Shown here: piece after piece, positions 315-44,146 of the stretch
Layout of the letters: each line of letters begins with the position of its first letter
Position numbering within the stretch: the first letter of the stretch is position 1
Assembly (NCBI GenBank): GCA_038065755.1
Contig: JBBTQJ010000020.1
Location: forward strand, 1 to 44,517
Reading direction: 5' to 3'
DNA: 44,517 nucleotides
From: Patescibacteria group bacterium
Lineage (GTDB): Bacteria > Patescibacteriota > Minisyncoccia > Minisyncoccales > Staskawiczbacteraceae
Notes under the pieces: model-generated
Told to the model about the DNA's origin: nothing
Seen by the model: only the letters and a program-made list of their open reading frames with translations
Databases searched by the model: none
Translations under genes and position numbers: made by a program

Positions 315-379
315 CTTGTACTTATCAAAATAACATAAATAATTTACTGCGTCAACTTGCGCCGCAATTTTTATCGCAT

Positions 380-414
380 AATAAAATACACCCGTGCGCT
401 AGTGCGCGGGTGTA
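380..414 (-). terminator. intrinsic terminator downstream of mraY
   Basis: GC hairpin tacacccgtgcgc/gcgcgggtgta (387-414), followed on the minus strand by TTTTATT. Confidence 0.6.
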
Positions 415-442
415 TTTGCCACACAATACGCTCAACGAATAA

Positions 443-5827: not shown

Positions 5828-7159
5828 TTAAAACCTGTCTGCTAATTTATAAATATCGCCGGCGCCCATTATTATTAAAACATCTATTTCTTTTATGTTT
5901 TTTTTAACAAAACTTTCAATTTCATTTGTCGCACAATAAAAAATGCTCTTCCGATGAATTTTTTCAACAAGTTTTTGCGAATTTATTTTCCTGCTTATTC
6001 CTTTTTCTTCCCGGCCGGCAACGTCATAAATATCAGTGATTATAATGTTGTCAACCGGCGCCAAGCGAAAAACTTTAACAAAATCCAAAAATAAATAATG
6101 TGTTCTCTGGCGCTGGTGCGGTTGAAAAACGCACAAAATTTTCTTGTTTAAATACTTTTCTCTTGCGGCTTTCAACGTTGCCGAAATTTCATTGGGATGA
6201 TGGGCATAATCGGAAATAACTATTATTTTTTTGCCGTTAACTTTGGCTTTTTTCTCTTCAAACCTTCTCCATGTTCCTTTAAATTCTGAAAGCGCTTTAA
6301 AAATTGTTTTATCTGGAATTTTTAATATCCTTGATGCCTGCAAAGTGGCTAAAGCATTAGAAACATTATGCTGTCCGGGAACTTTTATAATCTTTTTTAT
6401 TTTTTTTGTTTCATTGTCGTTGCGGGCGAAGCGAAACAATCTCAACCGCGGGGATTGCTTTATCGCTGCGCTCCTCGCAATGACGCTTAAATTTTTATCG
6501 TCGCCGTTAAAAACTAAAAATCCGTCTGCCGGCAGCCGCATAATAAAATTTTTAAATGCTTTTTTGACATTGGCAAACGATTTAAAATAATCCAAGTGTT
6601 CTTTGTCTATATTTGTAATCACAATTATATTAGGCGAATAATGCAAAAAAGAAGAGTCATATTCGCATGCCTCAATTACTAAAAACCTGCCCTTTCCATT
6701 CCTAAAATTACCGCCCCCGAACTCTTTGACTTTTGTGCCTACAATAACAGTAGGGTCAAGCCCGGCCTTAATCAAAACCAGAGCAATTATTGCGGTTGTG
6801 GTGCTTTTGCCGTGAGCTCCCGCAACAGCAACGGTAAAATATTGTTTTGTCAGCTCGCCAAGCGCTTGGGGATAGCTTTGCATTTTAATGCCCAATTTTT
6901 TTGCTTTTTTATATTCTAAATTATCAGATTTTACTGCCGGACTGTAAACAACTAAATCAATATCTGGCTTAATATTTTCTGCTTTTTGCCCGATATTTAT
7001 TTTTATTCTTTTGTCCGCCCGTAGGGGCAGGTTTTTCAAAAAATCTGTAGTTTCTGAAGCAGCCAAATCAGACCCCGAAACTTCGTGGCCTTTTGAAAAA
7101 TAATACTGAGCCAAAGCCGACACCCCAATCCCCCCAATGCCAATAAAATATATCTTCAT
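5828..7159 (-). CDS. murC: UDP-N-acetylmuramate--L-alanine ligase carrying an in-frame palindromic-repeat insertion
   Basis: N-terminal GIGGIGVS Rossmann motif; GAHGKSTT P-loop; Mur ligase middle and C-terminal domains. Repeat-encoded segment IARSAAIKQSPRLRLFRFARNDN. Confidence 0.9.
   Translation of the reverse strand: MKIYFIGIGGIGVSALAQYYFSKGHEVSGSDLAASETTDFLKNLPLRADKRIKINIGQKAENIKPDIDLVVYSPAVKSDNLEYKKAKKLGIKMQSYPQALGELTKQYFTVAVAGAHGKSTTTAIIALVLIKAGLDPTVIVGTKVKEFGGGNFRNGKGRFLVIEACEYDSSFLHYSPNIIVITNIDKEHLDYFKSFANVKKAFKNFIMRLPADGFLVFNGDDKNLSVIARSAAIKQSPRLRLFRFARNDNETKKIKKIIKVPGQHNVSNALATLQASRILKIPDKTIFKALSEFKGTWRRFEEKKAKVNGKKIIVISDYAHHPNEISATLKAAREKYLNKKILCVFQPHQRQRTHYLFLDFVKVFRLAPVDNIIITDIYDVAGREEKGISRKINSQKLVEKIHRKSIFYCATNEIESFVKKNIKEIDVLIIMGAGDIYKLADRF
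6411..6485. repeat. 'cgcaatgac' imperfect palindromic element, copy inside murC
   Basis: tcattgtcgttgcgggcgaagcgaaacaatc ... gattgctttatcgctgcgctcctcgcaatgacg. Its arms match those of the element at 31610-31692. Confidence 0.8.
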
Positions 7160-7177
7160 AAATATATTATAGTTATT

Positions 7178-7771
7178 TTAATCTTTTAAAATATGCGATT
7201 CTAAAATTGTATAAACTGGCCCTCCGCGTTTTAATTCTGACTCCATTATTTCAACAGATTCAACAGAAAACAATAAATCTATATTTTCATCAACTTCCGG
7301 CCTTTCTTCGGGCTCAATTTTTTTCCATTCCCATTCTAAAATTCTGGCCAAAGTGGCATGTGGAACAAACTTTCTGTTTTCTGGCGTAAAACGGACCGAC
7401 TCTAATAATGACTCTTGCAAATCATTTTTCAAATCGGCCAGCTCTTTAACATCTTGGCCTATTGCCCAAATCATTTTCGGGGTTTTCGGGGTCAGACGAG
7501 GGTCAGACCCCGGCCTGACCCCGCCGTATGCAATTTTATTTAGATTTATTGAAAAAGAGCCGTATCTCTTGGCTACTTCTTTTACAACCATGCAAACTTC
7601 GCCCAATTCCTCGTCTGTTAAATAACCCAAAAACTCCAGAGTAATATGAATATTCTCCTGGCTCACCCATTTTGCCGGAAGCTCCTGCCATTTTTTTTGG
7701 TAAGAAGCCAACTTTTTTTTAACATCTTCGGGTAAATTTATAGCAATAAAAATCCGATGTCTTTTGTTCAT
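7178..7771 (-). CDS. thpR: RNA 2',3'-cyclic phosphodiesterase / 2'-5' RNA ligase family (2H)
   Basis: Two HxT motifs (HITLEFLG, HATLARI); 197 aa. Confidence 0.8.
   Translation of the reverse strand: MNKRHRIFIAINLPEDVKKKLASYQKKWQELPAKWVSQENIHITLEFLGYLTDEELGEVCMVVKEVAKRYGSFSINLNKIAYGGVRPGSDPRLTPKTPKMIWAIGQDVKELADLKNDLQESLLESVRFTPENRKFVPHATLARILEWEWKKIEPEERPEVDENIDLLFSVESVEIMESELKRGGPVYTILESHILKD
7478..7526. repeat. GC-rich hairpin element in-frame inside thpR
   Basis: cggggttttcggggtcagacgagggtcagaccccggcctgaccccgccg. The gggtcag/ctgaccc stem encodes GVRPGSDPRLTPKTP. Confidence 0.6.
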
Positions 7772-8507: not shown

Positions 8508-8520
8508 ATAACTTTTGATT

Positions 8521-8626
8521 AGTCAGAAAATGTAATTTTGAAAGACCCCCACAGCCCCGCCCCAGCGGGGCGAGGACAGAGCCCCGCCAAGGCGGGGCGT
8601 GTCTGAAAAAATTACATTTTCTGACT
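8521..8626. repeat. 106-bp compound palindrome (19-bp perfect outer stem plus two GC hairpins)
   Basis: agtcagaaaatgtaatttt (8521-8539) pairs with aaaattacattttctgact (8608-8626). Inner hairpins gccccgc-ccca-gcggggc and gccccgcc-aa-ggcggggc. Confidence 0.8.
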
Positions 8627-8641
8627 AAAATTATTTAAACT

Positions 8642-18288: not shown

Positions 18289-18340
18289 AATTCCCTCCTT
18301 TTCTATTGTCAACGAACACCTGAAAGAACATATTAATTAT

Positions 18341-18501
18341 TAGACCTGTTGCGAAATAAGATTCGCAACGAAATTTTCAGATTTTGAAGCGAAAATTTGA
18401 TAAAATGAGGAGGTTTGCCTATGGCAAGCCGACGAATTTTAGCAAATTTGTAGCCAAAATATGAAAATTGCAGTAGAAATATTATTTCGCAACAGGTCTA
18501 T
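18341..18501. repeat. 161-bp long imperfect palindrome, family C copy 1 (pyrB 5' region)
   Basis: Perfect 19-bp terminal stem tagacctgttgcgaaataa/ttatttcgcaacaggtcta. The internal core matches the element at 43875-44044. Confidence 0.85.
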
Positions 18502-18502
18502 T

Positions 18503-18550
18503 ATTCTATTCTTTATTTTAAAAATATCAATAGTTTGTCGCATAATATAA
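18503..18550 (-). promoter_or_regulatory. promoter (TTGATA-16-TAGAAT) with upstream TGCGACAAA motif
   Basis: tatcaa 18525-18530 rc and attcta 18503-18508 rc; motif tttgtcgcataatataa at 18534-18550. Confidence 0.5.
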
Positions 18551-20464: not shown

Positions 20465-20487
20465 ATTGGGACGTATGACGTCCCAAT
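20465..20487. repeat. REP-like 23-nt palindrome attgggacgtatgacgtcccaat, copy downstream of the RAYT gene
   Basis: 10-bp perfect stem, 3-nt loop, 8 nt after the stop codon. Identical to the copy at 20995-21017. Confidence 0.85.
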
Positions 20488-20494
20488 AACTATT

Positions 20495-21214
20495 CTAATC
20501 TAAAACAATGTCGCCAAAATTTTTTATTTCTTTCTTATAAACAACCCAATTATCAACTATATTTTTACAGCCCCTAACCCCACCCATCGCTTCTAAAAGA
20601 AATTCTCTTTGTGTAACATAAAAAAAATTCTTTTTACCGAGATAATCGGGGTAGCTGTGCCGTTTGTTATTCTCTAAAAACTCAACTACTTTTTCTGGAT
20701 TTTTAATACCTTTCTCTTTCCAGCCAGGCTCAATCAATGATATTAAATTAGTGTGAATATATGCAAAAACATTTTTTAGTTGTTCCTCGGTTTTAATATG
20801 AACTACCTGAAATCTGCTAAAAAGATGTCCTTTACGATCATATTTATCATTAAAATATTTTGCGTAACCACCGCTGACTTTTTTCATAAAATTAGTAATT
20901 CCATCATCTTTCAATTGTCGTAATAATAGGTGCAGATGATTGGGCATAAAAGAAAAACTTAAAACCTCTACCATTCTATCCCTTTTGTCTAGATATTGGG
21001 ACGTATGACGTCCCAATGTTTCTAATAATTTTTCTTTTTTGCGCTGAAGACGACGCAACCATATTTCTGTAGGTTTAGTATTATTAAACTCGTAAATTGA
21101 AAAAATTCCACGATAAAAATCTTTTTCTTCGCTAAAAACCAACGTGTCGCCTACGGCTCGAATAACAGTATGATAGATTTCATCATTTACTAATTGTGGT
21201 CGTTGAATTGACAT
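20495..21214 (-). CDS. REP-associated tyrosine transposase (RAYT / IS200-like Y1 HUH)
   Basis: HUH motif MPNHLHLLL and catalytic-Tyr region AYIHTN; 239 aa. Confidence 0.75.
   Translation of the reverse strand: MSIQRPQLVNDEIYHTVIRAVGDTLVFSEEKDFYRGIFSIYEFNNTKPTEIWLRRLQRKKEKLLETLGRHTSQYLDKRDRMVEVLSFSFMPNHLHLLLRQLKDDGITNFMKKVSGGYAKYFNDKYDRKGHLFSRFQVVHIKTEEQLKNVFAYIHTNLISLIEPGWKEKGIKNPEKVVEFLENNKRHSYPDYLGKKNFFYVTQREFLLEAMGGVRGCKNIVDNWVVYKKEIKNFGDIVLD
20995..21017. repeat. REP-like palindrome, copy inside the RAYT coding sequence
   Basis: Identical 23-mer, read in-frame as LGRHTSQ. Confidence 0.85.
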
Positions 21215-27202: not shown

Positions 27203-27511
27203 CACTTTTTATATATATCCCATTTTGTTCGTAAATGAGCATATTTTTCCACTCTTTATCCACACCCCACATATTATAATTTCATCACATAATAAAACAC
27301 ATCCACGCATCAACGCGTAGATGTATTTGTCGCATAATAAAACTTTTGCGAAAAAAACATGCCCTTATGTGTTTGCTATTCGCCCAAAGGATATAACACT
27401 ATAAATAACTATAAATAAAAAGTAATAATATAAAATCTGCCAAAACTACTACGATCGTAGTTTTTTTGTCAAATTTTGTTCTTAAAATATCGGATAATAA
27501 TAGTTTTACGT

Positions 27512-31609: not shown

Positions 31610-31692
31610 TTGTCATTGCGAGGAGCCACAGCGACGAAACAATCTTTTTAATATTTTTGAGATTGCTTCACCTGCGGGCTCGCAATGACGAA
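31610..31692. repeat. 'cgcaatgac' imperfect palindromic element, intergenic copy
   Basis: gtcattgcgaggagccacagcgacgaaacaatc ... gagattgcttcacctgcgggctcgcaatgac. Confidence 0.8.
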
Positions 31693-43872: not shown

Positions 43873-43874
43873 CT

Positions 43875-44044
43875 AATTACCTTGAATTACGAAATGACCT
43901 TCAATTCTTTATATTTTAGTTTTAGCTGCAAATTTGCTATAACTCGTCGGCGTATCCTGCGGATATGCCTCCTCGTTCTATCAAATTTTCGCTTCAAAAC
44001 CAAAATAAAATAATTCGGAAGGCATTTCGTAACTCAAGGTAATT
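43875..44044. repeat. 170-bp long imperfect palindrome, family C copy 2 (abuts the GT2 start codon)
   Basis: 28-29 nt terminal stem taattaccttgaattacgaaatgaccttc/gaaggcatttcgtaactcaaggtaatta. The core matches 18341-18501 in the opposite orientation. Confidence 0.85.
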
Positions 44045-44146
44045 ATAAAGTTTAAAATCATAACGCTATTATTTTAAATGGTGTTTGTTAAAATTTCAAT
44101 GAAATGAAGCGTTAATTTTCATATTTATAAACGAGAAATAAAAACA

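What the first reader, a model, noticed from the sequence alone, without database searches (positions are those of the whole stretch)
6411..6485. Palindromic repeat inserted in-frame in essential murC (same family as intergenic 31610-31692)
A ~75-nt GC-rich imperfect palindrome of the 'gtcattgcgagg...cctcgcaatgac' type lies inside murC and is read through without stops, giving IARSAAIKQSPRLRLFRFARNDN. It sits in the variable segment between the GDD region and the PGxHN motif. Its arms match those of the intergenic element at 31610-31692 (gtcattgcgaggagc-cagcga-aa-caatc versus gtcattgcgaggagcgcagcgataaagcaatc). This parallels the Rickettsia palindromic elements, which insert in-frame into protein genes. 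In this window the same pattern recurs in thpR and in the RAYT gene.
Basis: partly seen in the sequence, partly recalled or inferred. Interest (0 to 1): 0.7.

Follow-up and report, generated by a model that had tools for sequence, protein, structure and literature searches.

The report
Hairpin repeat translated inside murC
A 69-base copy of a hairpin-forming repeat found in many bacterial phyla sits in frame inside the cell-wall gene murC of a tiny Patescibacteria (CPR) bacterium, where it replaces a dispensable loop. This extends the 'selfish DNA inside protein genes' pattern known from Rickettsia to a new lineage and a new repeat family.

Summary
Window 6416-6484 (minus strand) is a 69-nt imperfect palindrome translated as MurC residues 226-248. 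Its 5' arm matches the intergenic copy at 31612-31689. It also matches a profile built from 124 copies in other phyla.

It is not a plain insertion. The element's 25 codons replace about 18 ancestral codons, a net gain of 7 residues, in the most variable MurC segment.

Six other Staskawiczbacteria MurCs carry the element at the same codon and in the same orientation. Each is nearer to element-free MurCs than to the other carriers. One carrier is 91% identical to a non-carrier outside a patch of about 120 nt.

The family has termini GTCATTGCGAG/CTCGCAATGAC. It occurs in Proteobacteria, Bacteroidota, Chloroflexi, Cyanobacteria, Planctomycetota and CPR. It has no target-site duplication, no linked gene and no Rfam or RPE-domain match. 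Copies also sit in frame in GuaA and UvrA.

Each arm has the layout of the Ssn-related hairpin motifs (NTS/SRM, Chenal 2025). Near-identical hairpin pairs flank an ssn homologue in Planktothrix. The arms fail the published SRM pattern, and no ssn gene was seen here.

Verdict: a new variant of known kinds. It behaves like RPEs and is built like SRMs. Interest is moderate.

The parts
5828..7159 (-). murC host gene (443 aa), intact
   Evidence: ORF listing. Pfam Mur_ligase, Mur_ligase_M and Mur_ligase_C. TIGR01082 at 432.7 bits. AF2 model with pLDDT 87 that superposes on 1P3D with TM 0.88.
6416..6484 (-). 69-nt hairpin-pair element read in frame as MurC residues 226-248 (VIARSAAIKQSPRLRLFRFARND)
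   Evidence: Sequence, fold, orthologue comparison.
6453..6484 (-). 5' (long) arm, GTCATTGCGAGGAGCGCAGCGATAAAGCAATC, well preserved. Encodes VIARSAAIKQS, predicted to lie within helix 222-235.
   Evidence: nhmmer against the cross-phylum arm profile, E 8.6e-6. 15/15 match to 31612-31626. AF2 secondary structure.
6442..6452 (-). Loop or spacer, CCCGCGGTTGA. Differs completely between carriers.
6416..6441 (-). 3' (short) arm, GATTGTTTCGCTTCGCCCGCAACGAC, decayed. Encodes RLRLFRFARND; predicted strand 240-244 stands in for the ancestral strand.
   Evidence: Not detected by the arm profile. Two terminal-stem mismatches. AF2 models of the carrier and of element-free P0014.
31612..31689 (+). Second copy of the same family, 78 nt, in the 127-nt spacer between two small membrane-protein genes
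   Evidence: Both arms detected. Fold -16.5 kcal/mol, z = -5.0.

Best explanation
Window 6416-6484 is a decaying copy of a repeat family of about 70-95 nt that occurs in many phyla and has no coding capacity of its own. Each copy is a pair of inverted hairpin modules with the layout Y-GTCAT / stem / GAG..CGA-type loop / stem / ATC-C. One arm is about 33 nt and the other about 27 nt.

The copy lies in the peripheral, hypervariable segment of the MurC middle domain, between GDD and PGxHN. There it replaced about 18 codons. Translation runs through it because its length is a multiple of three and two of the three reading frames of the consensus are open in either orientation. The 5'-arm peptide is predicted to form a helix. 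The 3'-arm peptide is predicted to occupy the position of the ancestral beta-strand. The enzyme is therefore expected to stay functional, and the element is tolerated rather than needed.

Shown: family membership, in-frame read-through, replacement of the ancestral segment, polyphyly of carriers, wide phyletic spread, absence of target-site duplication, and in-frame copies in other housekeeping genes.

Inferred:
(a) The element entered this site once or a few times. The element-bearing patch, together with its flanking codons, then moved between Staskawiczbacteria murC alleles by short-patch homologous recombination.
(b) The arms are variants of the Ssn-related hairpin motifs, and are bound, cut or spread by a small GIY-YIG Ssn-type single-strand nuclease acting in trans.
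For: Family and read-through.

Replacement rather than insertion: the segment is 31 aa in 59 of the 84 proteins whose segment could be extracted (out of 120), and 38 aa here. Some orthologues lack the segment altogether (P0101, P0078, P0025, P0066).

Polyphyly: the five nearest MurC neighbours of every one of the seven carriers lack the element; the only carrier-carrier pairings among the six nearest listed are at rank 5 (P0005-P0003 and P0008-P0004). Identity between carriers is 70-79%. P0003 (carrier) and P0105 (non-carrier) are 91.3% identical outside the segment.

Patch exchange: the DNA of P0003 and P0105 is nearly identical on both sides of a patch of about 120 nt. The patch includes non-element codons. 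P0003 reads GDDKNLS, like the other carriers, where P0105 reads QDNQKIS. All sequenced carriers share the same boundaries and the same long-arm-first orientation.

DNA-level conservation: among codons that encode the same amino acid, 69-93% use the same codon inside the element, against 55-60% in the rest of the gene, in all 10 carrier pairs.

At least 40 places were found in one Novosphingobium replicon.

No target-site duplication; flanks are Y|GTCAT..ATGAC|R.

Other in-frame copies: GuaA and UvrA and a C-terminal protein tail.

Structure.

Ssn link: the NTS is CGTCATTCCCGCGMAVGCGGGAATCYRG and is cut by the GIY-YIG nuclease Ssn as single-stranded DNA (PMC11893778). Ssn homologues in Azospirillum, Spirosoma and Planktothrix are flanked by hairpin pairs of the same architecture. 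The Planktothrix arm, GTCATTCTGAGTGAAACGAAGAATC, matches the arm here at 21 of 27 positions, and both differing stem pairs are compensatory. A canonical SRM is nested in the loop of the P0006 murC element.
Against: The arms do not match the published degenerate SRM pattern (0 of 124).

No ssn or GIY-YIG gene is present in the window or in the 120 loci holding the element.

The one ssn homologue found in a replicon that also carries this element (Novosphingobium pNL2) is flanked by a different hairpin.

The NJ tree is star-like and was not bootstrapped.

The recombination inference rests mainly on one close pair.

The loops of the carriers differ completely, which independent insertions would also produce.

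Structure and tolerance are predictions; there is no expression or activity data.
Confidence: 0.75

Rival explanations
1. Each carrier lineage acquired the element independently, by orientation-specific and site-specific insertion into a murC hot spot. No allele exchange is involved.
For: Carriers are polyphyletic. Arms are near consensus while loops are unrelated. The same loop holds other inserts in other lineages: a single reversed arm in P0108 and a different GC-rich hairpin in P0012.
Against: It requires the same boundaries, the same orientation and the same deletion of about 18 codons seven times. It also requires five flanking non-element residues in P0003 to change to the carrier consensus. 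No target-site signature was seen.
Confidence: 0.2
2. The segment has been taken over for a function. Either the peptide (helix plus strand) is now needed in this MurC, or the DNA/RNA hairpin inside murC has a regulatory or recombination-limiting role and is kept by selection.
For: Synonymous sites inside the element are more conserved than in the rest of the gene. The peptide is predicted to be structured, with pLDDT 73-88. Relatives keep near-perfect hairpins.
Against: The window's own copy has lost hairpin quality (z = -1.76). Close orthologues function with the ancestral segment or with the segment deleted. Conservation is equally explained by recent spread of the patch.
Confidence: 0.12
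3. A single ancient insertion was inherited vertically and lost many times.
For: Position and orientation are identical in all carriers.
Against: Element-free neighbours carry the ancestral, canonical-type strand segment. That segment cannot be regenerated after it has been replaced.
Confidence: 0.03
4. The resemblance is chance, or the sequence is an assembly chimera, and this is ordinary coding sequence.
For: The fold z-score of the window's copy alone is weak.
Against: The 15/15 match, the profile E-values, the same element at the same codon in independent assemblies from JGI, ENA and NCBI, and an unrelated ancestral peptide in most orthologues.
Confidence: 0.01

Closest known systems
Rickettsia palindromic elements (RPEs; Ogata et al. 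2000 Science 290:347, as summarised in PMC10969869)
   Same: Both are palindromic repeats with no coding capacity of their own. Both are found in intergenic DNA and also in frame inside unrelated housekeeping genes, keep reading frames open, are read through as extra peptide, and occur in hosts with reduced genomes.
   Different: RPEs are about 100-150 bp and are described in Rickettsia. This element is 69-96 nt and occurs across many phyla, including CPR. No NCBIfam model of any kind, which would include any RPE-domain models in that library, matched the encoded peptides. Here the element replaces ancestral codons instead of simply adding residues.
NTS / dRS3 / Ssn-related motifs (SRM) with Ssn GIY-YIG single-strand nucleases (Chenal et al. 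2025, PMC11893778)
   Same: The arm layout is the same: Y-GTCAT, stem, short purine-rich loop, stem, ATC-C. Both have many dispersed copies, a wide phyletic range and no target-site duplication. Ssn homologues in Planktothrix, Spirosoma and Azospirillum are flanked by hairpin pairs built the same way. A canonical SRM is nested in one murC copy.
   Different: The arms fail the published SRM pattern (0 of 124). The stem is ATTGC/GCAAT with a longer GAG..GCGAAGC..GAA loop. No ssn gene was found near any copy examined. That paper reports no in-frame coding copies (no mention of 'intragenic').
REP/REPIN elements with RAYT (IS200/IS605-like Y1) transposases
   Same: Both are hairpin pairs, have no target-site duplication, and are presumed to be mobilised in trans by an enzyme that recognises a single-strand hairpin. 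A RAYT-like gene is present in the window (20495-21214).
   Different: That gene is flanked by a different palindrome, TTGGGACGTCATACGTCCCAA. The element has no GTAG-type head. REPs are typically specific to a species, whereas this sequence is conserved across phyla.
Bacterial MITEs (Correia/NEMIS, ERIC, QMITE and others)
   Same: Both are short, non-autonomous and palindromic, and are sometimes intragenic with open frames (PMC10969869).
   Different: No target-site duplication, no terminal inverted repeats matching a known IS, and no linked transposase.

Membership tests
Rickettsia palindromic elements (RPE) | Palindromic repeat present both in intergenic DNA and in frame inside protein genes | tested here: met
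   In-frame copies in murC, GuaA and UvrA. Intergenic copy at 31612-31689.
Rickettsia palindromic elements (RPE) | Encoded peptide belongs to a recognised RPE family (RPE domain models) | tested here: not met
   No NCBIfam model matched the element peptides or the carrier MurCs beyond the Mur-ligase families at E <= 10. Short peptides and HMMER filters limit sensitivity.
Rickettsia palindromic elements (RPE) | About 100-150 bp, in Rickettsia genomes | tested here: not met
   69-96 nt. The host is Candidatus Staskawiczbacteria by the names of the MurC homologues.
Ssn-related motif (SRM/NTS) | Hairpin with a conserved oriented 5' flank (H-GTC-W-Y) and a C directly after the stem | tested here: met
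   Arms begin Y|GTCAT and end GCAAT-C(C). The flank is C or T in 117 of 124 copies.
Ssn-related motif (SRM/NTS) | Match to the published pattern HGTCWYN(0-2)YYVSBRHN(0-5)WNVSBRGN(0-2)RNCYNB | tested here: not met
   0 of 124 elements and 0 in the window. The only match is the nested motif in L004 10691-10718.
Ssn-related motif (SRM/NTS) | Located next to an ssn (single-domain GIY-YIG, cd10448) gene | tested here: inconclusive
   No ssn gene in the window or in the 120 element loci. A variant with 21/27 identity and compensatory stem changes flanks the Planktothrix ssn homologue on both sides. The protein query was written from memory. It was validated by hitting an N. gonorrhoeae locus surrounded by 10 NTS copies.
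Ssn-related motif (SRM/NTS) | Bound and cleaved by Ssn as single-stranded DNA | not testable with these tools
   Needs biochemistry.
REP/REPIN-RAYT | The repeat flanks the RAYT gene of the same genome | tested here: not met
   The Y1_Tnp gene at 20495-21214 carries and is followed by an unrelated 21-nt palindrome.
REP/REPIN-RAYT | Inverted pair of hairpins forming a larger hairpin | tested here: met
MITE | Target-site duplication at the ends | tested here: not met
   Direct flank repeats are no more frequent than in shuffled controls at k = 1-6.

The most novel reading that the evidence does not exclude
The GTCATTGCGAG-type hairpin pair may be an undescribed class of Ssn-related motif spread across phyla. 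Such hairpin pairs, rather than lineage-specific 'RPEs', may be a general source of in-frame peptide segments in housekeeping proteins: MurC in CPR, GuaA and UvrA in Gammaproteobacteria. On this reading, the scattered presence at one murC codon, with flanking codons carried along, reflects short-patch recombination that starts or ends at these hairpins. The repeats would then act as portable boundaries for recombination inside genes.
Probability: 0.25. Interest if true: 0.75.

Novelty: new variant of a known kind. Interest (0 to 1): 0.55.

Why it matters
If correct, this has three consequences.

1. Protein-coding palindromes are not peculiar to Rickettsia. They also occur in CPR bacteria and in other phyla, through a repeat family I could not find in the library of papers searched here, in Rfam or in NCBIfam.

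2. It ties the in-frame phenomenon to the hairpin architecture recently shown to be the substrate of Ssn single-strand nucleases. That makes the mechanism of spread testable.

3. It identifies a MurC loop that tolerates replacement, deletion and several different inserts. This is useful for annotation, because many short 'hypothetical proteins' are simply translations of this repeat. It is also useful for reasoning about protein evolution by short-patch exchange.

Tried and rejected
- GIY-YIG or any other gene family enriched next to the element: none. phmmer, regex and tblastn found nothing in the 120 loci or the window, and all-against-all clustering of neighbouring ORFs gave only unrelated housekeeping families.
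- The small GIY-YIG ORFs in L003 and L004 lie in or next to tRNA genes and are not flanked by this element.
- Rfam at E <= 1: no family at either copy.
- NCBIfam RPE or other domain models: no match.
- Full-text search for the nucleotide motifs and encoded peptides: nothing for this family. Only the NTS paper turned up, through GTCATTCCCGC.
The tandem-peptide query returned only short domain-less 'hypothetical proteins' and failed to recover the known MurC carriers. It therefore says nothing about how often real proteins carry the element.
- Metagenome scan for the murC/element junction TTAAGYGTCATTGCGAG: 123 matches in 120 stretches, of which only one is murC, the already known P0004 contig. 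TTAAG is not a murC-specific junction.
- Target-site duplication: none.
- The first fold, which included AT-rich flanks, gave an uninformative z of -0.86.

Full report
**Observation**

The window is AT-rich (35% GC). MurC homologues are named Candidatus Staskawiczbacteria or Patescibacteria.

ORF 5828-7159 (-) is an intact 443-aa MurC. It has three Mur-ligase Pfam domains and scores 432.7 bits against TIGR01082, whose cut-off is 335.1.

Read in the gene's sense, positions 6484-6416 are GTCATTGCGAGGAGCGCAGCGATAAAGCAATC / CCCGCGGTTGA / GATTGTTTCGCTTCGCCCGCAACGAC. This is 69 nt, codons 226-248, encoding VIARSAAIKQSPRLRLFRFARND.

The first 15 nt are identical to the start of the 78-nt intergenic copy at 31612-31689.

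A profile of 227 arms taken from other phyla detects three arms in the window and nothing else: 31612-31645, 6484-6452 and 31689-31660, with E from 4.5e-7 to 7.8e-5.

The murC copy is decayed. Its fold z-score is -1.76. The intergenic copy scores -5.0, and the murC copies of relatives score -6.5 to -7.5.

**Replacement, not simple insertion**

I took the 120 closest MurC proteins. The pattern match could extract the segment between the GDD region and PGxHN in 84 of them, and it is 31 aa in 59 of those (KYPPKISKPKFKTIGYSVKQKEAKKIKSILK). In the window it is 38 aa. So 25 element-derived residues stand where about 18 ancestral residues were. Several orthologues lack the segment entirely (P0101, P0078, P0025, P0066).

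In solved MurC structures this is the region where sequence alignments break.

AlphaFold models were made for the window's MurC (pLDDT 87; TM 0.88 to 1P3D) and for the element-free P0014 (pLDDT 91). They predict that the 3'-arm peptide LRLFR forms the strand that KAFSY forms in P0014. They also predict that the 5'-arm peptide forms a helix (222-235) where P0014 has coil. These are predictions only.

**Distribution among orthologues**

Six other proteins carry SVIARS..KQS..LRLLRFARND at the same place: P0003, P0004, P0005, P0006, P0008 and P0027.

DNA could be fetched for four of them. It shows near-perfect copies with identical boundaries and the same orientation, long arm first. P0006 has in addition a canonical NTS-like hairpin nested in its loop.

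Carriers are 70-79% identical to each other. The five nearest neighbours of each carrier all lack the element; carriers appear among the six nearest listed only twice, at rank 5 (P0005-P0003 and P0008-P0004).

P0003 is 91.3% identical to the non-carrier P0105 outside the segment. At the DNA level these two are almost identical on both sides of a patch of about 120 nt. The patch includes non-element codons: P0003 reads GDDKNLS, as other carriers do, and P0105 reads QDNQKIS.

Among codons that encode the same amino acid, the same codon is used in 69-93% inside the element and in 55-60% elsewhere, in all ten carrier pairs.

Other lineages have other inserts in the same loop: a single reversed arm of this family (P0108) and an unrelated GC-rich hairpin (P0012).

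My reading is that the loop is permissive, that the element entered once or a few times, and that the element-bearing patch then moved between alleles by short-patch recombination. Independent targeted insertion remains possible.

**What the element is**

Copies were found in Alpha- and Gammaproteobacteria, Bacteroidota, Chloroflexi, Planctomycetota, Cyanobacteria, Deltaproteobacteria, Patescibacteria and Berkelbacteria. About two chance matches would be expected in that collection.

- The conserved boxes are GTCATTGCGAG, GAAGCAATC, GATTGCTTCG and CTCGCAATGAC. The loop varies.
- Arms come in two main sizes, 27 nt and 33 nt.
- There is no target-site duplication. Flanks are Y before the element and R after it.
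- No gene family recurs next to copies.
- Neither copy in the window matches an Rfam family.
- Public plasmid records that hold the element carry no annotation for it.
- Two of the three reading frames are open in each orientation of the consensus.
- In low-GC loci, 4 of 29 copies lie inside long ORFs. These include GMP synthase (L041) and UvrA (L047), both confirmed by Pfam. One copy supplies the C-terminal tail of a membrane protein (L020).

**Link to known systems**

By behaviour this resembles the Rickettsia palindromic elements (PMC10969869). No RPE domain model matched.

By architecture, each arm resembles the Neisseria NTS, CGTCATTCCCGCGMAVGCGGGAATCYRG, and the wider Ssn-related motifs. 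Small GIY-YIG Ssn nucleases bind and cut these as single-stranded DNA (PMC11893778).

I used an Ssn-like query written from memory. It was validated by its hit on an N. gonorrhoeae locus surrounded by ten NTS copies. With it I found homologues in Azospirillum, Spirosoma and Planktothrix that are flanked by hairpin pairs of the same layout.

- The Planktothrix arm, GTCATTCTGAGTGAAACGAAGAATC, matches the arm here at 21 of 27 positions. Both differing stem pairs are compensatory.
- The Spirosoma arm shares the GAGGAACGA loop with the Bacteroidota copies of this family.

Against membership:
- The arms fail the published SRM pattern (0 of 124).
- No ssn gene was seen in the window or near any copy.
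- The ssn homologue on Novosphingobium pNL2 is flanked by a different hairpin.
- The RAYT-like gene in the window (20495-21214) has its own, different palindrome.

**Verdict**

The element is a new variant of known kinds: it behaves like RPEs and is built like SRMs. The mechanism of spread is inferred, not shown.

Noticed in passing
window 7487-7523 (within thpR 7178-7771, minus strand): A GC-rich hairpin (GGGGTCAGGCCGGGGTCTGACCCTCGTCTGACCCC; fold z = -3.8) is read in frame as GVRPGSDPRLTP, adding about 8-10 residues relative to most orthologues. The L005 orthologue has it too. It belongs to a different sequence family from the murC element.
   Followed up: partly
window 20495-21214 (-), 20996-21016 and 20466-20486: A RAYT-like Y1 transposase (PF01797, E 2.8e-8) holds the 21-nt palindrome TTGGGACGTCATACGTCCCAA in frame (peptide LGRHTSQ). 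The identical palindrome recurs 9 nt after its stop codon. There are no other copies in the window.
   Followed up: partly
window 8519-8628: A long GC-rich inverted repeat (38-nt arms, 82% complementary, up to 82% GC) lies between the HHH_8 gene and efp.
   Followed up: no
window 18323-18518 and 43874-44045: Two copies of a repeat of about 190 nt, in opposite orientation and about 74% identical. Each copy is itself internally palindromic.
   Followed up: partly
window 369-428 and 27280-27339: A 60-nt repeat (72% identical) centred on a GC-rich hairpin (ACACCCGTGCGC..GCGCGGGTGT). It looks like a terminator.
   Followed up: no
L003 19710-19964 and L004 1659-1937: Small single-domain GIY-YIG ORFs (84 and 92 aa) in related Staskawiczbacteria contigs lie in or next to tRNA genes, with the tRNA 3' end or flanking inverted repeats duplicated. 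They may be homing-type insertions.
   Followed up: partly
L041 4466-4543; L047 2835-2921; L020 3703-3793: The same element family is read in frame inside GMP synthase (GATase domain) and UvrA of low-GC gammaproteobacterial MAGs. It also forms the last ~40 residues (element-encoded stretch about 30) of a 524-aa membrane protein in a Patescibacteria MAG.
   Followed up: partly
L004 10691-10718 (-), inside murC of P0006: A canonical NTS-like hairpin (TGTCATTCCCGCGAAAGCGGGAATCCAG), which matches the published SRM pattern, is nested in the loop of the murC element. The peptide of P0027 suggests a further nested copy.
   Followed up: partly
L131 (Planktothrix agardhii plasmid p1, NZ_LR882964.1 17356-20613): An ssn homologue sits between an MmeI-type restriction-modification gene and DISARM drmA. 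It is flanked on both sides by hairpin pairs plus tandem partial arms (TGTCATTCTGAGT repeated).
   Followed up: no
protein collection, P0121-P0182: Dozens of short (34-90 aa) domain-less 'hypothetical proteins' in public annotations match the translated repeat; I take them to be spurious gene calls over copies of it.
   Followed up: no
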